From the IMG/VR virus record IMGVR_UViG_2663762839_000001, positions 1 through 11,683 of that record: 11,683 nt of DNA; one strand, given 5' to 3'. The position numbers and the translations under genes are program-made. This DNA comes from a virus (lineage: Duplodnaviria > Heunggongvirae > Uroviricota > Caudoviricetes). Positions 126 to 5,980 of this stretch are shown one piece after another; position 1 is the stretch's first letter, and the number at the start of each line of letters is the position of its first letter. The notes beneath the pieces were generated by a model. It had not been told where the DNA came from. It saw only the letters and a program-made list of their open reading frames with translations, and did no database searches.

Positions 126-485
126 ATGAGAATGACCAGCCGCAAAAAAGAGATACTTAGCTACTTTGAACCGGATAACCTCGAATGGGTGACTGGTGAG
201 ATTGGTGCGCCGCCGTTCGATGTGTCGGGTGTGGCCTACCTGCTTCATGGCATGGTGTCGTTCGATAAGCGTCACCAGCTCGAATCAACCCGGCGCACAC
301 TGGAAAGCATGGTTGCTGGTGGACTGCTTGAGCGGGTGACAGTGTATGAATCGCGCCAGATACGGCGCGGCGGTGAGACTAACGCAACGGTCGTGCGTTA
401 CGGTTTACCCGGTCATTGTGCTGTTATGCGCGATACTGGCGGCGCTGATAACGCAATATCAGGTGAATACATGCGGGTCAGTTAA
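126..485 (+). CDS. Hypothetical protein, 119 aa, possible small DNA-binding protein
   Basis: ATG start preceded by AGGAAT; uninterrupted ORF with E. coli-like codon usage; TAA stop at 483-485. Its 3' end overlaps the convergent minus-strand gene by 8 nt. No family recognised. Confidence 0.55.
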   Translation: MRMTSRKKEILSYFEPDNLEWVTGEIGAPPFDVSGVAYLLHGMVSFDKRHQLESTRRTLESMVAGGLLERVTVYESRQIRRGGETNATVVRYGLPGHCAVMRDTGGADNAISGEYMRVS

Positions 486-1020
486 TAGCCTGCAATCTGT
501 CGTTGATGCGGCTCAGGTCGTAAACCCGGCGTTCAATATCCAGCATCAGGAAATTGTGGATCTCGGCCTGCTCAGGATTATCAGACTCTCTGGCCTGTAA
601 TAGCAATTCATTGTAACCATGCAAGCCGCCTGAGTTTTCCGCCGGGGTGGTGCCTTTCCCACGCAGGCAGCTAATGGGCTGATTACTCGTATCGTGTGTT
701 TGCTTCTCCAGCACAATGACGCAATCCCACCAGTCGCCAAAGTCATACGTGTAAACCAGCTTGTCACCCTCATTCTGGAGCGCCGCCCATAGTGGCGTGA
801 TTGCCGCGTTACCCATGCTTTCATCCTCACCCCATACGCGATACTCGCTACCTGGATCACCTTTACGCCCTTTCTCGAACATATACAGGTGTTCGTCATT
901 CCAGCCAAAAGCTAACTGGATCACGGCATGAAGTTTACTAAAGGGGATTTGCTCTGGAACCAGCACACGCCGCCATATAGGTGGTTTGCTGTCTCGGATG
1001 GTTATCTTTAGCTGGTACAT
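478..1020 (-). CDS. PRiA4b ORF-3-like family protein, 180 aa
   Basis: ATG at 1020-1018 with AGGAT 5 nt upstream. Translation contains YTYDFGDWWDCVIVLEK, which I recall as the signature of the plasmid pRiA4b ORF-3-like family (PF07929). Recollection only, not a search result. Confidence 0.6.
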   Translation of the reverse strand: MYQLKITIRDSKPPIWRRVLVPEQIPFSKLHAVIQLAFGWNDEHLYMFEKGRKGDPGSEYRVWGEDESMGNAAITPLWAALQNEGDKLVYTYDFGDWWDCVIVLEKQTHDTSNQPISCLRGKGTTPAENSGGLHGYNELLLQARESDNPEQAEIHNFLMLDIERRVYDLSRINDRLQAIN

Positions 1021-1140
1021 GCAAATCCTGAATAAATGCGAATCGGAAGGATAACGATACTGACGTACTCACAATTCTGTAAAGGTGAATAAAGGAAATT
1101 TGCTTAATACGCATAAGTTACATGTGGAATAATCCCATAT

Positions 1141-1326
1141 CTACCTGCGCGGCGCTGGCTTCTTCCACTGGTAGGCAGGTGCTCGCATCATTTCGCGGAA
1201 CCTGTCGCGCCGGGCTATATCGGCATTAACTGAGCGTTCTATCTCCCGTTGATCTGCCTGTGTAAGCTGGTGGCCTCCGTGCTCAAGTTTGGCGATGGTC
1301 AATAAGGCTATTTCGCGTGGTGTCAT
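1141..1326 (-). CDS. Small hypothetical protein, 61 aa, basic C-terminus
   Basis: ATG at 1326-1324 with AGAGGG Shine-Dalgarno upstream; uninterrupted ORF; basic tail KKPAPRR. Function unknown. Confidence 0.5.
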   Translation of the reverse strand: MTPREIALLTIAKLEHGGHQLTQADQREIERSVNADIARRDRFREMMRAPAYQWKKPAPRR

Positions 1327-1604
1327 ACGTCATACCCTCTGGAAGGATGAAACACGCCCGGATTAAATTTCATTTTTCGCGGGTATGAAAAAACGATGGG
1401 GCGGGCAGTCCCGGACAGTCAGGGCTGTAGAGATTTGACTACCCCCTCCCGGTGATAGTTTATTGCTTGATGTGGACGGCTTGCTATATTGGCGGCGAAT
1501 GCAAATTGTCGCAGAAGTCTATCCCGTTCTATGACGCCCTGTGTGGTTGTGGTGCGAATCGCCCGCGTCACGCCGTTGATTTTAGGCTGCGCTCGGAACG
1601 AACA

Positions 1605-1955
1605 TCACGGCGCAGAAGTGTACCAACCGAATCTTGTTAACCCGGCATCGCAGCGCTCACGATTAAGCACACGTGGCGGGTTTTCTCTGGTCATCAACTC
1701 AAGCAAGGCATTGCCTCCCTGCATCTCCAGTCGGTATTGCCTATCGGTAGTGGTAATGGCATCCGGCAATAACTTTATGGCGGCCTGGCTAAAGTCTCGC
1801 GGTGCGCCGTAAAATTGCGCATCAACAATATGAACCACATCGCCGTTAATCGTTGTCCGATAACGGTCTGGCTGTATGGTAAAGCCCCCACAATGGATAG
1901 CAGATAGTGCCGGTGCCGATGAGATCAGGACGGCTGCCAGAATGTATGGCTTCAT
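1605..1955 (-). CDS. Exported (periplasmic) hypothetical protein, 116 aa, N-terminal signal peptide
   Basis: N-terminus MKPYILAAVLISSAPALSA has a hydrophobic core and an AxA-type cleavage site; two Cys residues in the mature part. Its ATG overlaps the stop of the upstream metallopeptidase gene (ATGA at 1952-1955). Confidence 0.65.
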   Translation of the reverse strand: MKPYILAAVLISSAPALSAIHCGGFTIQPDRYRTTINGDVVHIVDAQFYGAPRDFSQAAIKLLPDAITTTDRQYRLEMQGGNALLELMTRENPPRVLNRERCDAGLTRFGWYTSAP

Positions 1956-2596
1956 TCTTCACCCACCAATTCATCCAGTTCAGCCAGCGTCATAGGCTTT
2001 GGTACAGGCTTGTCAATATCACCCATAATGCGCTGGAAGTTTCTGGCAGGCATATGGTTACGGTTCTCCAGTATTTTCGCCAGCGCGATAACATCCCACC
2101 ATTTCAGGGCAATCAGCGCCTCAGCACGGGAAAGGGATATTCTCTGTATATCAGCATCCTCTCCACCAGCCACCCGGTATACCTCTGATAAATCACGAAC
2201 ATTTTTCATGTCTGCTTTCCCGGACGTTTCCATCAGTGCGTTAATATCATCCCCCGTATAGCGTGATTGCGCGACGATACCAGCCAGAGAGATAACCATA
2301 TCCCGGCATACCTGGTCTATCAGACGTAACCTGGTGTCATCATTCGAGAGGGTGTAAGACTTAACCTCAGCCACATTCCGTGGATAGTTGCCGTGCTGCC
2401 ATACCGCTACAGCTCCACATTCATCAACATCTCCGCTAAGGTAGGTTTTTGCCACTCGGTTATTACCCGATAACGCAATTTCTACCTCCTGTATGCCGAA
2501 AAACCATGCGGCTATCGCATGACCTGCTTCATGTATTGCAAGATGTCTGGGCCAGCGATAGCTGCCGAACTCAATAATGATGGGTTGCGTACTCAT
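1952..2596 (-). CDS. Putative zinc metallopeptidase (HExxH; HEAGH motif near the N-terminus), about 214 aa
   Basis: HEAGHAIAAW motif read from the translation. Start placed at ATG 2596-2594 with GAGGGAAG Shine-Dalgarno upstream, which avoids overlapping the ssb stop; the ORF track's longer version starts at 2653. No signal peptide. Confidence 0.6.
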   Translation of the reverse strand: MSTQPIIIEFGSYRWPRHLAIHEAGHAIAAWFFGIQEVEIALSGNNRVAKTYLSGDVDECGAVAVWQHGNYPRNVAEVKSYTLSNDDTRLRLIDQVCRDMVISLAGIVAQSRYTGDDINALMETSGKADMKNVRDLSEVYRVAGGEDADIQRISLSRAEALIALKWWDVIALAKILENRNHMPARNFQRIMGDIDKPVPKPMTLAELDELVGEE

Positions 2597-2606
2597 ATCT
2601 TCCCTC

Positions 2607-3068
2607 TCAGAATGGCGTTTCATCGTCGAATGGTGGGCGTTGGTCAAAATCATCAGGGGTATTATATAACTCCCATCCCGGCGCGGATTGTGTTGTGTGG
2701 CCCCTGCTGGCTCCGCTTGCTTTGACTGATTCGGCCCGCTTCCCGCCGGGGCGTACCGTTCTGGCGCTGATCACGCTGTCGGCTACTACCTGATAACCTT
2801 GCTGTGTACCGCCATCCTTGCCCGTCCACTGATTGATCTGCATCGCTCCGGCAACACTGACTAAATCGCCTTTAACGTGTCCTGCCAGTGCGTCGGCCTG
2901 TTTGCCGAATGCCACCACGCCCAGCCAGAAAGTAACCTCTCCGCCCTCTGCTGCATGGCAGGGCAGTGCCACCGCTAACCGTCCCATTGCCATGCTTGTA
3001 CCGTTTGCTGTGGTACGGGTCTGGGGATCTGCCACCAGCCGCCCGTATGCTGAAATTTGTGCTGTCAT
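2607..3068 (-). CDS. ssb: Single-stranded DNA-binding protein (SSB), 153 aa
   Basis: OB-fold SSB pattern (LVADPQTRTT..NG..MAMGRLAV...FWLGVVAFGKQAD...GDLVSVAGAMQINQWTGKDGG) and acidic C-terminal tip ending DDETPF, comparable to E. coli SSB DDDIPF. GAGGAA Shine-Dalgarno; ATGA overlap with the upstream gene at 3065-3068. Confidence 0.85.
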   Translation of the reverse strand: MTAQISAYGRLVADPQTRTTANGTSMAMGRLAVALPCHAAEGGEVTFWLGVVAFGKQADALAGHVKGDLVSVAGAMQINQWTGKDGGTQQGYQVVADSVISARTVRPGGKRAESVKASGASRGHTTQSAPGWELYNTPDDFDQRPPFDDETPF

Positions 3069-3367
3069 AGATATTTCCTCATGTAGTCACTACCTCCGGG
3101 GATAATTTTCATTTCTTCCCTTAAAGGCCACTGCTCCGCCATTGCTGCGGTCGAGTGATTCCCGTCATCACGTCCGGCCTGTGCTGCCGTCCAGTGTGTT
3201 GCATATTCTGTAAATCCAATTTCTGCTGGCTGCCTCATCCAGTGGGCGATCATCCTCAAGGTCATTTGCAGGCTTTGGGTGTCGCCCTGTAATGCGCGTT
3301 TGTCAGTAAACCCCTTCAATGCTTCACGCTCCTGATAGGTCATTTTCTGGCTGGTTTCTGTATTCAT
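3065..3367 (-). CDS. Hypothetical protein, 100 aa, first gene of the ssb operon
   Basis: ATG at 3367-3365 with AAGGTGG upstream; uninterrupted ORF; stop overlaps the ssb start. No recognisable family. Confidence 0.5.
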   Translation of the reverse strand: MNTETSQKMTYQEREALKGFTDKRALQGDTQSLQMTLRMIAHWMRQPAEIGFTEYATHWTAAQAGRDDGNHSTAAMAEQWPLREEMKIIPGGSDYMRKYL

Positions 3368-3420
3368 TGCCCACCTTCGTTATAAGCTACCCCCCCCATA
3401 GAATCTTTTTGGGGGTGTAA

Positions 3421-3582
3421 TATCCCTACCAATCCCTACTAACTGTCTCAGGCCACGAATGGCAAGGCTTTCAGACTGGTAGGCATTCAATTTTGTTGCC
3501 CTACATAACCCTACTTATCCCTACTAAATCACTTCAACGGCATTTTGCTGCCTGTTTTATTTGGTAGGGATATGTAGGGATA
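3421..3582. repeat. Iteron cluster: seven copies of the core CCCTAC (TATCCCTAC in the best copies), five direct and two inverted, phased at 10 bp; candidate operator array or replication origin
   Basis: Direct cores at 3424-3429, 3434-3439, 3499-3504, 3509-3514, 3519-3524; inverted GTAGGG at 3564-3569 and 3574-3579. Within each group the spacing is exactly 10 bp. CTTATCCCTAC (3514-3524) and GTAGGGATAAG (3574-3584) form an 11-bp perfect inverted repeat. Confidence 0.6.
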
Positions 3583-4142
3583 AGTGCCGCCGTAAAAGTT
3601 TCAATCACATCACTCTGCCCGCTCTCCACACCGTAAGCACGGGGCATGAACTCCTCAGCCTTCTCGTTATAGCCAACGTTGGTCTGCGCTCTGCCGTTAA
3701 TGCTTCTCGTCAGGTAGCTGGCTCGGTACTCTTTTGCTGCTGATTTTATGGCGCGTGAAAACTTATTGACGGAAAGCGGTTTACCCAAACCGTGATACTC
3801 CATAAACGCCAGATAAAGATGATAAAGATATGTCCTCGGCTCTGGCTGGCCTGCCCATGTACCTCCGCCCATCATCATGCCTTTGGGTTCGTTCATGAAA
3901 AAAAGCGCCGCACACATATCGACAACCGGATCCGTGCCGCGTTTAACCTCTAGCGCCTCCTGCGAATCGCGCTGCTCTAGTAATAGTGCTTTTGCTTTGT
4001 TCTGGTCGGCAAAGGTGGTTAGCAGGTGGCGGATAATCACCGGGATTTCTCGCCTGATTTTTGCTGTTAAATCCGGGTCTTTGTCTGCGTCTGATACCGG
4101 GTTATTAAACGGGAATACCCGTAGCGTGACATTGTCGTTCAT
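3534..4142 (-). CDS. P4-family primase/helicase C-terminal-region-like protein, 202 aa; either a stand-alone domain protein or a 5'-truncated remnant
   Basis: Motifs LRVFPF..DPDLTAKIRREIPVIIRHLL and RTYLYHLYLAFMEYHGLGKPLSVNKFSRAI resemble, from memory, the conserved C-terminal region of phage/plasmid P4-type primases. ATG overlaps the upstream stop (ATGA at 4139-4142) with GAAGGTG upstream. The 3' end runs through two inverted iteron copies. Confidence 0.45.
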   Translation of the reverse strand: MNDNVTLRVFPFNNPVSDADKDPDLTAKIRREIPVIIRHLLTTFADQNKAKALLLEQRDSQEALEVKRGTDPVVDMCAALFFMNEPKGMMMGGGTWAGQPEPRTYLYHLYLAFMEYHGLGKPLSVNKFSRAIKSAAKEYRASYLTRSINGRAQTNVGYNEKAEEFMPRAYGVESGQSDVIETFTAALIPTYPYQIKQAAKCR

Positions 4143-5263
4143 TGCACTGGCACCTTCAGAGGGATCACCGGCACAAAGCCGGGATGCGTAATGGCATTAC
4201 GCCGGATAATGTCCGCGTCACGCGCCGCGTTATCAAACCAGGTCGCCGCCAGCACCAGCGCGGGTAAAACCTCATCCGGTGTGCGCTGAATGATCCGTGC
4301 AGACTGTTCAAGGCGCGTGTTGATATCCGCATTCAGATCTGCTTTCACCCGGCGCAGCGCCAGAAACAGCGCATCGCTGGTTGTACGGGACAACTCCTTA
4401 TCAATTGCCGTATTCAGTGTGTCGCGAATGTCAGTCAGTTCTTCCCACGTCGGCAGGTCAACCGTGTTTTTCACCGCCGGTGCATTGTTCAGTGCCGGAT
4501 GCGTGACGGAAGGCCAGCAAGTGCTCTGCGCAGGTGTTGTTGCCTGCCCCACTGCGGCATTCTGCATCACCGCGGAAGTTGTTAGCGCAGGCACCCGCAT
4601 CCCGGGAGGCGCATCCTTAAACGAGACCGTAATCTCGCCTTCAGCCTTCTTCGGCGCAGCCTGAACTATCTGATACGGATTGTATCCCTGAGCAGAAACG
4701 CCTGTACCGTACGCCCCATAGCCACCGCCCCCCCACTGAGTCGCATTGGCTGCAACCACCGTGTCGCTGGCACCATCAGTAAACCATTCAATAATCGGCT
4801 TCAGCTTGTCCCACATATCCTGAAACCACTTAACAACCGGCCCCCAGTTATTGATCACCATCCCCAGCGGCGACCAGGCAAAAACTTTCTTAAGGAGTTC
4901 CCAGCCAGCCTCAAAATAAGGACCAATGGTTTCCCAGAGTTTCTTAAAATAAGGTCCGACAACATCCCAGTTAGTGATAATTAATCCCGCAGCCAGGGCT
5001 ATCGCCGTCGCAATCATGCCAATCGGCGTCATCGACATGATCCTGCTGACAATACTGATGGCACCGCCAACGCCCATCAATCCCAGTTTCAGAATCGCAA
5101 GACCGGCAGCAAGCCCGACGACGCCGCGAATAACCCGGGGATTTTCATCCGCAAACTTCGTGAATTTTTCCCCCAACTCCCCCAGCCATTGCGTGATATT
5201 TTTGGCGTCACCAGAAAATGCGCCGCCAATAGCCGCAAGGCCGTTAGTTGCGGTCCCCGTCAT
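4139..5263 (-). CDS. Tail tape-measure-like protein (paralog or fragment), 374 aa
   Basis: Hydrophobic, Trp-rich segments (MTPIGMIATAIALAAGLIITNWD, WELLKKVFAWSPLGMVINNWGPVVKWFQDMW) parallel the central region of the 7937..9925 tape measure (MSPVGLITALAAGIALLWEDY). Start sits about 40 nt downstream of an intrinsic terminator; Shine-Dalgarno spacing is short. Confidence 0.5.
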   Translation of the reverse strand: MTGTATNGLAAIGGAFSGDAKNITQWLGELGEKFTKFADENPRVIRGVVGLAAGLAILKLGLMGVGGAISIVSRIMSMTPIGMIATAIALAAGLIITNWDVVGPYFKKLWETIGPYFEAGWELLKKVFAWSPLGMVINNWGPVVKWFQDMWDKLKPIIEWFTDGASDTVVAANATQWGGGGYGAYGTGVSAQGYNPYQIVQAAPKKAEGEITVSFKDAPPGMRVPALTTSAVMQNAAVGQATTPAQSTCWPSVTHPALNNAPAVKNTVDLPTWEELTDIRDTLNTAIDKELSRTTSDALFLALRRVKADLNADINTRLEQSARIIQRTPDEVLPALVLAATWFDNAARDADIIRRNAITHPGFVPVIPLKVPVQ

Positions 5264-5614: not shown

Positions 5615-5650
5615 GTATCACATTATAATTACGAGTGATTAATCAACAAT
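5615..5650 (-). promoter_or_regulatory. Putative sigma70 promoter for the 79-aa membrane protein gene
   Basis: Minus-strand perfect TATAAT (plus 5627-5622) with a TTGTTG -35-like hexamer (5649-5644) 16 nt upstream; sits at the 3' end of the upstream gene and the intergenic spacer. Confidence 0.4.
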
Positions 5651-5980
5651 CTTTTTGCATGGAAAGGAACCGATGATTTTCGGCGCATCCATGCTGTTCT
5701 GCAGCAGTTGGACATTCAGGAATCGCGTTTCGGTACCAGGGCGACGAATGTATTCAAAGCCGTAGTTGTTACCGTCTTTGGCAGGCATAAGCCCCATGTC
5801 TACTTTCAAACCATTGGTACCCAGTTCGGTGATTTTTTGAGAGGTAACTTTTTCACCGTTGATTGTCGATAACTCGCCCTGGTTTGCAACCATAGTGTAG
5901 CCACCGCATTTAACCGTGAAGCCATCCGCCCACGCGCTGCACGCAGAAAAGACAGCTAACAGAAAAATAATACCCCTCAT
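5639..5980 (-). CDS. Exported protein, 113 aa, signal peptide with possible lipobox (FSAC) or signal peptidase I site (AWA-D)
   Basis: N-terminus MRGIIFLLAVFSACSAWADG; two further Cys (VKCGG, FPCKK). ATG with AAGGGGA upstream, only 3 nt after the stop of the 353-aa tail gene. Confidence 0.65.
   Translation of the reverse strand: MRGIIFLLAVFSACSAWADGFTVKCGGYTMVANQGELSTINGEKVTSQKITELGTNGLKVDMGLMPAKDGNNYGFEYIRRPGTETRFLNVQLLQNSMDAPKIIGSFPCKKIVD

What the first reader, a model, noticed from the sequence alone, without database searches (positions are those of the whole stretch)
1605..3367. Translationally coupled operon: hypothetical protein, SSB, HExxH metallopeptidase and exported protein
Four genes are chained by ATGA overlaps or a 10-nt gap: a 100-aa unknown, a clear SSB with acidic tail, a cytoplasmic-looking protein with an N-terminal HEAGH zincin motif, and a signal-peptide protein. 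SSB next to an HExxH protease recalls plasmid leading-region and anti-restriction modules (ArdC combines ssDNA binding with a metalloprotease) and ImmA/IrrE-type regulatory proteases. A cytoplasmic protease coupled to an exported partner is unusual. The operon sits directly downstream of the iteron cluster, so it may be a replication or anti-defence module, or a protease-based switch.
Basis: partly seen in the sequence, partly recalled or inferred. Interest (0 to 1): 0.65.

Follow-up and report, generated by a model that had tools for sequence, protein, structure and literature searches.

The report
Phage-satellite SSB plus FtsH-like protease cassette
This is the far end of a phage-satellite (PICI-type) island: a replication-helper SSB gene, then a rare, swappable and uncharacterised pair of genes (a free-standing relative of the FtsH zinc protease and a small exported beta-barrel protein) that may be a new phage-conflict module, though no function has been tested.

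Summary
Four minus-strand genes (3367-1605) are joined by two ATGA overlaps and a 10-nt gap, directly downstream of an iteron cluster.

The context is a PICI/P4-type phage satellite, not a plasmid leading region. Intact E. coli copies read int, AlpA-type HTH, AntA/B, Icd-like, P4-family primase, iterons, these four genes, PRiA4_ORF3, inserted at tRNA-Thr.

The cluster is two modules:
- **orfA-SSB** travels with the primase and origin. orfA has no detectable relatives of known function.
- **The HEAGH protein plus the exported protein** is a swappable cassette, found in 28 of 5,426 complete E. coli genomes. Sibling islands carry PerC in that slot.

The HEAGH protein is a free-standing homologue of the FtsH protease domain (M41 superfamily). 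Its HExxH and third-ligand Asp are invariant, and it has no AAA+ or membrane part. It is not ArdC, SprT or ImmA-like.

The exported protein is a periplasmic eight-strand beta-barrel. Its fold is closest to PliC/MliC lysozyme inhibitors, and it is distantly related to a phage tail-module family (phrog_3443).

Protease homologues recur downstream of satellite primases, often followed by this barrel or by a lipoprotein, but not always. The cassette matches no known defence model. Its function is untested; a phage-conflict cassette is my best guess.

The parts
3534..4142 (-). Remnant of the satellite primase-helicase. Only the C-terminal ~194 residues remain, fused in frame after 8 codons that come from a prophage tail gene.
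   Evidence: Pfam Pox_D5 at 8.8e-7 and PHROG DNA-primase families down to 2e-23. It is 85% identical to the C-terminus of the 813-aa P4-family primase in L001, starting from residue 9. The tail-derived similarity begins at about 4116.
3420..3585 (.). Iteron cluster, the presumed satellite replication origin. GTAGGG(A/T)T repeats occur at 10-nt spacing in both orientations and straddle the primase stop codon.
   Evidence: the repeat finder families D1 and D3 and inverted pairs I1-I6. In Gram-negative PICIs the origin, with two iteron sets, lies immediately 3' of pri-rep (PMC6092414).
3065..3367 (-). orfA, 100 aa, function unknown. It is the first gene after the origin and overlaps the SSB start (ATGA).
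   Evidence: Only 10 homologue clusters, all unnamed. Weak sub-threshold hits to DUF5551 (0.012) and phrog_4935 (2.6e-4). No PDB relative. It stays with this SSB and the P4-family primase in sibling islands that lack the protease cassette.
2607..3068 (-). Satellite-encoded single-stranded DNA-binding protein, 153 aa: an OB fold plus the acidic C-terminal tip DDETPF.
   Evidence: Pfam SSB 1.1e-14, 54.7 bits; phrog_44 5.9e-30; TIGR00621 at 50.8 bits, just under its 53.95 cut-off. RefSeq names it SSB. SSB is counted among PICI replication genes (PMC10111431).
1952..2596 (-). Free-standing FtsH-protease-domain homologue (M41-like zinc peptidase), 214 aa, soluble, with no AAA+ module and no membrane segment.
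   Evidence: A family profile hits 12 FtsH/AFG3L2/YME1 chains at E 8e-10 to 8e-6. hhalign against E. coli FtsH 383-607 gives probability 95%, E 2.6e-8, over 172 columns, pairing H22/E23/H26 with HEAGH and D129 with the Asp of TGASND. Ten of 29 relatives hit Pfam M41, and two exceed the gathering score. Invariant residues: E23, A24, H26, G106, A109, D129, A173. Maximum hydrophobicity is 1.33.
1605..1955 (-). Sec-exported 116-aa protein, predicted to be a periplasmic eight-strand beta-barrel with a conserved Cys22/Cys102 pair.
126..1326 (.). Shared 3' block of the island: a 61-aa ORF (1326..1141, minus), a PRiA4_ORF3 protein (1020..478, minus) and a 119-aa ORF (126..485, plus). It flanks the variable slot on the far side.
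   Evidence: Pfam PRiA4_ORF3 at 1.1e-42. The same block follows either the protease cassette (L001) or PerC plus a 125-aa gene (L047).

Best explanation
The four genes are the promoter-distal part of the single-direction early operon of a PICI/P4-type phage satellite. They form two modules.

(1) orfA-SSB belongs with the primase-helicase and its iteron origin. The inferred role of the SSB is to coat the DNA unwound at the origin and, through its DDETPF tip, to recruit host replisome proteins. The role of orfA is unknown.

(2) The 214-aa and 116-aa genes are a swappable accessory cassette in the accessory region next to pri.
- The 214-aa protein is a soluble homologue of the FtsH protease domain. 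Its full zinc site is present (H22, E23, H26, D129), so it is probably catalytically competent. It has no unfoldase of its own, so it should cut unstructured or already unfolded substrates, or borrow a host ATPase.
- The 116-aa protein is exported by Sec and folds into a disulfide-bonded periplasmic beta-barrel of PliC/MliC-like shape.

My best guess is that the cassette serves phage conflict: helper interference, superinfection exclusion or defence. The barrel would bind a phage or host envelope component, and the protease would act on a cytoplasmic phage protein or on the unfolded precursor of its partner.

Shown here: gene structure, family assignments, satellite context, modularity, and recurrent pairing.
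Inferred: catalytic activity, export, any role in conflict, and any physical or functional cooperation between the two proteins.

My probabilities: identities and context about 0.9; cassette modularity about 0.85; conflict role about 0.4; true two-protein cooperation about 0.3.
For: **Context.** The identical cluster in E. coli YZ22MPE6 sits in a ~12-kb island at tRNA-Thr beside proA. The order is int, HTH, AntA/B, DUF4222, Icd-like, P4-family primase, the four genes, 61 aa, PRiA4_ORF3. The layout matches Gram-negative PICIs, where the iteron origin lies 3' of pri-rep and interference or accessory genes follow (PMC6092414). An accessory and immune region adjacent to pri has been shown experimentally in Pectobacterium PICIs (PMC11364771).

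**Modularity.**
- Sibling islands carry primase-orfA-SSB-PerC, or primase-SSB-PerC-125aa-61aa-PRiA4.
- orfA+SSB occurs in at least 52 complete genomes, the cassette in 28 of 5,426.
- The cassette occurs without SSB or primase beside it in L005, L011-13 and the Salmonella loci L035-37.
- GC content differs: SSB 0.578, protease 0.490.

**Protease identity.**

**Recurrence.** M41-like homologues at only 21-30% identity to the window protein still sit downstream of satellite primases: L040, L041, L043, and L054 inside a helper-embedded PICI that splits a major capsid gene.

**Pairing.**
- exp116 follows two protease clades that are 31-39% identical to each other, while exp116 itself stays 47-59% identical.
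- A ~360-aa lipoprotein (39-52% identical) follows proteases that are only 22-29% identical to each other.
- It also follows the Dickeya protease, which is 67% identical to the window protein. The two partner types are therefore interleaved on the protease tree.

**Exported protein.**

**Not a known system.** No PADLOC hit. No relevant paper found.
Against: - There are no functional data of any kind.
- The window protein alone fails Pfam M41. It gave no Pfam hit at E<=0.01 and no PDB hit by phmmer.
- The fold search is only suggestive: FtsH and FtsHi are the top hits but at E 0.015-0.07 and TM about 0.47, from a model with pLDDT 74.
- FtsH's Glu in GGRLAEE is Gln110 here.
- The protease also occurs with non-exported neighbours or none: L040, L044, L050 (PerC-like), L053-57.
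- Most copies of the lipoprotein family have no M41-like gene within 4 kb.
- Relatives of exp116 (phrog_3443) sit in phage tail modules without any protease.
- In sibling islands the slot holds PerC, a regulator, not a defence gene.
- In this window the island is truncated: there is no int, no alpA and no N-terminal primase. This copy may be a non-mobile remnant with uncertain expression.
Confidence: 0.55

Rival explanations
1. The protease and the exported protein are functionally independent. The M41-like gene is a semi-core satellite gene. The position just downstream of it is a moron slot that happens to collect exported phage-type genes (the barrel, the lipoprotein), so adjacency reflects descent and local recombination.
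For: The protease occurs with PerC-like, cytoplasmic or no downstream neighbours. The lipoprotein family is mostly found without an adjacent M41-like gene; in four viral contigs it lies about 8 kb away in the same element, next to int. phrog_3443 relatives of the barrel live in phage tail modules without a protease.
Against: Every exp116-family gene examined is adjacent to an M41-like gene, usually with a 4-nt overlap: about 10 lineages and two protease clades. The same two exported families recur next to deeply divergent proteases. Seven of nine M41-positive viral contigs also carry one of the two partners.
Confidence: 0.3
2. A protease-based regulatory switch in the manner of ImmA/ImmR. The M41-like protease would cleave a small regulator encoded just upstream (the ~55-aa protein in other lineages, orfA here) to control the satellite cycle or cargo expression.
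For: A conserved ~55-aa protein directly precedes the protease, overlapping it by 1-8 nt, in L005, L011-13, L035-37, L053/54 and L058/59/61. In L004 it precedes SSB. orfA holds the same first-after-origin position here.
Against: The 55-aa protein is absent from the window and is not homologous to orfA. It has no DNA-binding family or PDB match. The protease is M41-like, not M78. Gram-negative PICI induction is already explained by AlpA. This model leaves the exported partner unexplained.
Confidence: 0.12
3. All four genes form one replication module, with the protease processing or clearing replication proteins on ssDNA, analogous to SprT/Spartan or ArdC next to an SSB.
For: SSB lies immediately or closely upstream of the protease in L001-4, L007, L008, L010, L038, L040 and L043. 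The cluster abuts the origin.
Against: The cassette is replaced by PerC in sibling islands that keep the same SSB. It occurs far from any SSB or primase in L005, L013 and L035. There is no SprT or ArdC similarity. An exported partner has no place in replication.
Confidence: 0.07
4. An anti-restriction or anti-defence module like those of plasmid leading regions.
For: Only the general co-occurrence of an SSB and an HExxH protein.
Against: No homologue on 72,556 plasmids. No ArdC, SprT or M78 signal. The element is an integrase-borne chromosomal satellite with no conjugative transfer genes in view.
Confidence: 0.04

Closest known systems
FtsH / peptidase family M41 (protease domain of the AAA+ membrane protease)
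   Same: HEAGHA zinc helix, the GxxA(E/Q) helix, the third-ligand Asp in the (S/T)Gxx(x)D motif and the C-terminal helical bundle all align over about 172 columns. Some family members pass Pfam M41.
   Different: There are no transmembrane helices and no AAA+ ATPase. It is about 35 residues shorter inside the domain. Only 19% of aligned positions are identical. The window protein itself is below Pfam's threshold. It is encoded only on satellites, not as a housekeeping gene.
Gram-negative PICIs (e.g. EcCICFT073) and their pri-adjacent accessory/immune region (Tai systems)
   Same: int, AlpA-type regulator, primase, iteron origin 3' of the primase, transcription in one direction, then accessory genes. 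The cassette sits in the region where Tai immunity genes were found.
   Different: No packaging or capsid-redirection gene was recognised. The cassette is unrelated to Tai: phi80 carries Tai, yet neither protein shows phage hits apart from phrog_3443. Helper dependence is unknown. The window copy is truncated.
Lit protease of prophage e14 (an HExxH abortive-infection protease; from my own knowledge, not tested here)
   Same: A mobile-element-encoded cytoplasmic HExxH zinc protease that could act in phage conflict.
   Different: Different family (U49), a single gene with no exported partner. PADLOC, which carries abortive-infection models, gave no hit.
ImmA/IrrE (M78) and CapP-type regulator-cleaving metalloproteases
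   Same: A small HExxH protease on a mobile element, sometimes preceded by a small conserved protein.
   Different: No M78 similarity. There is no HTH partner, and the upstream small protein is absent from the window.
PliC/MliC/PhiA periplasmic lysozyme inhibitors (functional analogue from memory: T4 Spackle, a periplasmic inhibitor of the incoming tail lysozyme)
   Different: No Pfam MliC hit. The signature inhibitory motifs are not seen by eye. Sequence identity is 5-10%. Inhibition is untested.
phrog_3443 (exported protein of unknown function in tail modules of temperate myophages)
   Same: Signal peptide, the CGG(F/Y)T...TING motif and the two-Cys spacing. tblastn gives 28% identity over residues 1-102, E 2e-4. 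A true member lies in this same window at 5639-5980.
   Different: The relationship is very distant (hhalign probability 77%, N-terminal third only). The phage copies have no protease neighbour.

Membership tests
SSB (PF00436) | OB-fold ssDNA-binding domain above the family threshold | tested here: met
   54.7 bits against a cut-off of 26, covering residues 4-99; phrog_44 at 5.9e-30.
SSB (PF00436) | Acidic C-terminal tip (D-D-D-I-P-F type) that binds partner proteins | tested here: met
   The sequence ends ...PPFDDETPF. Comparison with the E. coli DDDIPF tip is from my own knowledge.
SSB (PF00436) | ssDNA binding and tetramer formation | not testable with these tools
   Needs biochemistry.
Peptidase M41 (FtsH protease domain) | HExxH zinc motif, conserved across the family | tested here: met
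   H22-E23-A-G-H26. E23 and H26 are invariant and H22 is present in at least 90% of 29 sequences. It aligns to FtsH HEAGH.
Peptidase M41 (FtsH protease domain) | Third zinc ligand: the Asp in the TGAxxD-type motif | tested here: met
   D129 is invariant and aligns with the Asp of FtsH TGASND. That this Asp is the zinc ligand in FtsH structures is from my own knowledge.
Peptidase M41 (FtsH protease domain) | Score above Pfam PF01434 gathering threshold | tested here: not met
   The window protein gave no M41 hit at E<=0.1 for the 233-aa form or at E<=0.01 for the 214-aa form. Distant relatives P0060 (46.6 bits) and P0081 (52 bits) pass the 29.9 cut-off. The link is by profile: E 8e-10 to FtsH chains.
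Peptidase M41 (FtsH protease domain) | M41 fold | tested here: inconclusive
   Foldseek's top hits are FtsHi 8xks and FtsH 3kds, but at E 0.015-0.07 and TM about 0.47; the model has pLDDT 74.
FtsH proper (AAA+ membrane protease) | N-terminal transmembrane helices plus an AAA+ ATPase module | tested here: not met
   The protein is 214 aa and starts 21 residues before HEAGH. It has no hydrophobic segment (maximum KD 1.33) and no AAA hit.
ArdC / SprT-like / ImmA-IrrE (M78) | Family HMM match | tested here: not met
   No hit at E<=0.1 in Pfam or NCBIfam. No homologue on plasmids.
PICI (Gram-negative phage-inducible chromosomal island) | int + alpA-type regulator + pri(-rep) in one direction, with no phage structural genes, integrated at a specific att site | tested here: met
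   Met in the intact copy L001, a ~12-kb island at tRNA-Thr, and in related loci. In the window itself only the 3' half survives.
PICI (Gram-negative phage-inducible chromosomal island) | Iteron origin immediately 3' of the replication gene | tested here: met
   Iterons at 3420-3585, at the primase stop codon, as described in PMC6092414. Origin function is not tested.
PICI (Gram-negative phage-inducible chromosomal island) | Helper-phage-dependent induction and packaging | not testable with these tools
   Needs induction and transfer experiments. No packaging gene was recognised.
MliC/PliC lysozyme inhibitors | Family HMM (PF09864) and conserved inhibitory loop motifs | tested here: not met
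   No Pfam hit at E<=0.1. The motifs were not seen on reading the sequence.
MliC/PliC lysozyme inhibitors | Exported eight-strand beta-barrel fold | tested here: inconclusive
Known anti-phage defence systems (PADLOC-DB v2) | Match to any system protein model | tested here: not met
   No hit for any of seven island proteins at E<=0.1.

The most novel reading that the evidence does not exclude
The M41-like protease and its exported neighbour make up a previously undescribed two-part conflict system carried by phage satellites. An ATP-independent FtsH-like protease in the cytoplasm would work with interchangeable envelope effectors: the PliC-like barrel or the ~360-aa lipoprotein. Together they would exclude or abort superinfecting or helper phages, for example by blocking a tail muralytic or injection step from the periplasm while degrading ejected or early phage proteins, or by having the protease gate the amount of exported effector.
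Probability: 0.2. Interest if true: 0.72.

Novelty: new variant of a known kind. Interest (0 to 1): 0.5.

Why it matters
Phage satellites are a rich and still poorly charted source of immune and interference genes. The region next to the PICI primase was only recently shown to hold such systems.

This work defines a satellite-restricted family of free-standing FtsH-protease-domain proteins with an intact zinc site. It has 68 representative proteins (50%-identity clusters) at E<=1e-3 among 1.84 billion. None was found in the plasmid collection or among deposited phage genomes. Several members sit inside prophage contigs, as helper-embedded satellites.

It also shows that these proteases repeatedly sit in front of one of two exported proteins whose relatives are phage genes. 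If the pair acts together, it would be an unusual cytoplasm-to-envelope logic for phage conflict and a new job for the M41 fold without its ATPase.

If not, the result is still a clean re-annotation of four 'hypothetical/SSB' genes. It also corrects the plasmid and anti-restriction reading.

Tried and rejected
- **Single-sequence searches for the protease found nothing:** phmmer against PDB, Pfam, PHROG, NCBIfam and PADLOC. The close-family profile A1 gave only E~2 to FtsH. The link appeared only after distant representatives were added.
- **ArdC, SprT, M78:** no signal, rejected. The Peptidase_M50B-like hits cover only the HExxH helix and were set aside in favour of M41, which matches both ends of the protein.
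- **The ~55-aa upstream protein:** I read it as ribbon-helix-helix-like. Profiles against Pfam and PDB gave no support, so I dropped that label. It is not related to orfA.
- **orfA:** no PDB or family relative.
- **C5/G8 inverted repeat** between the iterons and orfA (3390-3416): the fold is no better than shuffles, z -0.33.
- **Promoter and terminator scan:** nothing inside the operon, and counts are at or below shuffle expectation.
- **Rfam and tRNA scans of the window:** nothing.
- **Tai immunity:** considered because of the shared location. Neither cassette protein matched phage records, apart from exp116's weak hits to phrog_3443-type genes, although phi80 encodes Tai.
- **Lipoprotein partner, the 435-aa and 261-aa neighbours, and the 125-aa basic protein:** no family found.
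Full report
**1.

The window carries four co-directional minus-strand ORFs at exactly the stated limits:
- orfA, 3367..3065, 100 aa
- SSB, 3068..2607, 153 aa
- the HEAGH protein, 2596..1952, 214 aa
- the exported protein, 1955..1605, 116 aa

The junctions are an ATGA overlap, a 10-nt gap holding a GAGGGAAG ribosome-binding site, and a second ATGA overlap. RefSeq annotates the same four CDS in identical E. coli copies. The protease/exported-gene overlap is kept in five divergent lineages.

Directly upstream, GTAGGG(A/T)T repeats at 10-nt spacing occupy 3420-3442 and 3495-3527 and, inverted, 3559-3585. They straddle the stop codon of a primase remnant.

**2. The element is a phage satellite, not a plasmid**

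A 2.2-kb query (window 1400-3600) spanning the cluster matches chromosomes only. Twenty-five complete E. coli genomes carry at least 80% of it.

In strain YZ22MPE6 it lies in a ~12-kb island at tRNA-Thr beside proA. The gene order is integrase, HTH regulator, AntA/AntB, DUF4222, Icd-like, small ORFs, P4-family primase, the four genes, a 61-aa ORF, PRiA4_ORF3 and a 119-aa ORF. Relatives in Dickeya, Buttiauxella, Salmonella, Citrobacter, Rouxiella and metagenomes show the same int-AlpA-AntA-primase architecture.

This is the layout described for Gram-negative PICIs: one transcription direction, pri-rep followed at once by an iteron origin, then interference and accessory genes (PMC6092414). SSB is listed among PICI replication genes (PMC10111431). 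An accessory and immune region next to pri has been shown experimentally (PMC11364771).

The protease has no homologue in 72,556 plasmids or 50,697 deposited phage genomes. That removes the plasmid leading-region analogy.

**3. The cluster is two modules**

- Sibling E. coli islands keep primase-orfA-SSB but continue with PerC (L046). Others read primase-SSB-PerC-125aa and then the same 61aa-PRiA4-119aa block (L047).
- orfA+SSB is in at least 52 complete genomes. The protease+exported pair is in 28 of 5,426, always as a single chromosomal copy.
- The pair occurs without SSB or primase beside it in L005, L011-L013 and the Salmonella islands, where it lies near the integrase.
- GC content also steps from 0.578 in SSB to 0.490 in the protease gene.

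So orfA-SSB belongs with the replication module, and the other two genes are a cassette in a variable slot.

**4. SSB and orfA**

SSB passes Pfam (54.7 bits) and phrog_44 (6e-30) and ends in PPFDDETPF. This resembles the partner-binding tip of E. coli SSB (my own knowledge). I infer that it supports replication from the adjacent origin.

orfA has ten unnamed homologue clusters and no family or PDB relative. Its function stays unknown.

**5. The HEAGH protein is a free-standing FtsH-protease-domain homologue**

Single-sequence searches are blank. The close family is small: 25 clusters, nearly all labelled Enterobacterales.

A profile search of 1.84 billion representatives found 68 proteins at E<=1e-3. 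In an alignment with 28 relatives, 24 of them from that search (down to 19% identity), E23, A24, H26, G106, A109, D129 and A173 are invariant, and H22 and W166 nearly so.

That profile hits 12 FtsH, AFG3L2 and YME1 chains at E 8e-10 to 8e-6, through both the N-terminal zinc helix and the C-terminal helices. Ten of the 29 members hit Pfam Peptidase_M41, and two exceed the gathering score.

Against it, hhalign gives 95% probability and E 2.6e-8 over 172 columns. It pairs HEAGH with HEAGH, LAGIVAQ with YGGRLAEE, and D129 with the Asp of TGASND, which is the third zinc ligand in FtsH structures (my own knowledge).

The AF2 model (pLDDT 74, pTM 0.77) finds FtsHi and FtsH first, but weakly. The protein has no AAA+ module and no hydrophobic segment.

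It is therefore M41-like, not an FtsH, and not ArdC, SprT or ImmA.

**6. The exported protein**

It has a conserved signal peptide with an A-x-A site and nearly invariant Cys22 and Cys102. The AF2 model (pLDDT 75.6) is an eight-strand barrel.

By sequence it is a distant relative of phrog_3443 (0.0038 by HMM; tblastn 28% identity over residues 1-102, E 2e-4). That family is an exported protein found in tail modules of temperate myophages. A true phrog_3443 member (1e-47) lies in this very window at 5639-5980.

**7. Is the protease tied to an exported partner?**

*Evidence for:*
- Every exp116-family gene I examined sits directly after an M41-like gene.
- Two protease clades only 31-39% identical to each other both carry exp116, which stays 47-59% identical.
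- In Dickeya/Pectobacterium, L041 and L043, the protease is instead followed by a homologous ~360-aa lipoprotein with a lipobox (LGAC, ITGC, ISGC). The lipoproteins are 39-52% identical while their proteases are only 22-29% identical.
- The Dickeya protease is 67% identical to the window protein. The two partner types are therefore interleaved on the protease tree.
- Seven of nine M41-positive viral contigs carry one of the two partners.

*Evidence against:*
- The protease also occurs with PerC-like, cytoplasmic or no neighbours (L040, L044, L050, L053-57).
- In a partner-side search, most lipoprotein genes have no M41-like gene within 4 kb.
- In one fully resolved case the lipoprotein sits next to int and the protease about 8 kb away in the same element. 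That element is a satellite inserted in a major capsid gene, whose halves match PF09950 positions 4-64 and 61-251.

Coupling is therefore suggestive but not shown.

**8. Mechanism, with its limits**

Shown: anatomy, families, context, modularity and recurrence.

Inferred: the SSB aids origin-dependent replication, and the protease is an active zinc endopeptidase. Lacking an unfoldase, it must act on unstructured substrates or borrow a host ATPase. The barrel works in the periplasm.

I consider a conflict role (interference, exclusion or defence) the most likely, at about 0.4, for four reasons:
- its location in the PICI accessory region;
- its rarity and swappability;
- its restriction to satellites;
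- the phage ancestry of both exported partners.

No known defence model matches, and I found no paper on such proteins.

Rival readings are independent morons (0.3), a regulator-cleaving switch involving the upstream ~55-aa protein or orfA (0.12), a single replication module (0.07) and anti-restriction (0.04).

**9. State of this copy**

In the window the island is truncated. Only the last ~194 residues of the primase remain. They are fused in frame after eight codons of a tail gene, next to a chimeric tape-measure/DNA-circularization ORF. No complete E. coli genome has this junction. The four genes are intact and 99-100% identical to those of intact islands, but their native upstream promoter region is gone.

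**10. Verdict**

The feature is real and the anatomy was described correctly, but the interpretation needs redirecting. This is the origin-distal end of a PICI-type satellite: a replication SSB followed by an uncharacterised cassette of an FtsH-like protease and an exported barrel. It is a new variant of known kinds (the M41 fold without its ATPase, and PICI accessory cargo). Interest is moderate, and would be higher if the pair proves to be a working two-compartment system.

Noticed in passing
window 3534-5263: Mosaic junction. The primase is cut to its C-terminal ~194 residues and fused in frame after 8 codons that come from a tail gene; the breakpoint is at about 4116-4119. The ORF upstream (4139-5263, 374 aa) is itself a chimera of a tape-measure N-terminus and a DNA-circularization C-terminus, with about 1 kb deleted. 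No complete E. coli genome contains this junction. The satellite remnant points the same way as the tail genes. That recalls helper-embedded PICIs, but the junction is not at an att/int end.
   Followed up: partly
window 5639-5980 (minus strand): A 113-aa exported protein in a low-GC patch (0.42) of the tail module is a clear phrog_3443 member (1e-47). It is a distant relative of the 116-aa exported protein in the finding: both share the CGG(F/Y)T...TING motif and the two-Cys spacing. So two relatives of one obscure family lie in one window, on two different mobile elements.
   Followed up: partly
L004:9370-9537, L005:9820-10008, L012:9825-9992, L035:9268-9444, L054:7759-8001, L058:3005-3274: A conserved ~55-aa protein (KPVLLSxxQIxAIRxIQEQERxxSxLGVAPTIHVIARQLMDKAL) directly precedes the M41-like gene, or SSB in L004, in many lineages. 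It often overlaps the next gene by 1-8 nt. It is absent from the window, where orfA holds that position. No family or PDB relative was found.
   Followed up: partly
L002:10718-11788, L041:7746-8870, L043:1968-2726, L052:8722-9792; L058-L098: A ~360-aa lipoprotein family of unknown function (conserved DYK(E/K)RPGW, YAAYHEYG, DRWSMGL, SISDRAW, ILFSHWAGMARVY). It follows the M41-like gene in several satellites but is more often found elsewhere in 27-57-kb viral contigs. No Pfam or PHROG family matches.
   Followed up: partly
L079:1525-2010 and L054:9860-10432 (contig IMGVR_UViG_2806310749_000003): A major capsid gene (PF09950) is split into an N-terminal piece (model positions 4-64) and a C-terminal piece (61-251). 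About 12 kb lies between them, encoding integrase, the lipoprotein, a DUF927 primase, the 55-aa protein, an M41-like protease and a DUF5681-like protein. This looks like a helper-embedded PICI of the kind described in PMC10111431.
   Followed up: partly
L047:3901-4278 (minus), L002:12059-12451, L053:9286-9609: A 125-130-aa protein with a basic, glycine-rich N-terminus (GGRRKGAGAPxGNTNAVKHGERSR) recurs downstream of the variable slot in sibling islands. It is missing from the window and from L001. It might be a small-terminase-like or packaging-redirection protein. No family hit was found, so this remains untested.
   Followed up: no
L007 (record titled Chryseobacterium sp.) and L004 (Pseudomonas graminis): These records carry islands whose proteins are 72-93% identical to the E. 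coli ones, including typical enterobacterial satellite genes. Contamination or mislabelling of the assemblies seems more likely than such a host range.
   Followed up: no
window 11464-11670 (minus strand): A 68-aa ORF that looks like the C-terminal end of an IS3-family transposase (integrase core). This fits the rearranged, IS-rich character of the region.
   Followed up: no
L046:8918-9181: In RefSeq record NZ_CP073958 an 87-aa satellite ORF is annotated as 'nicotinic acetylcholine receptor subunit beta'. This is an evident annotation error.
   Followed up: no
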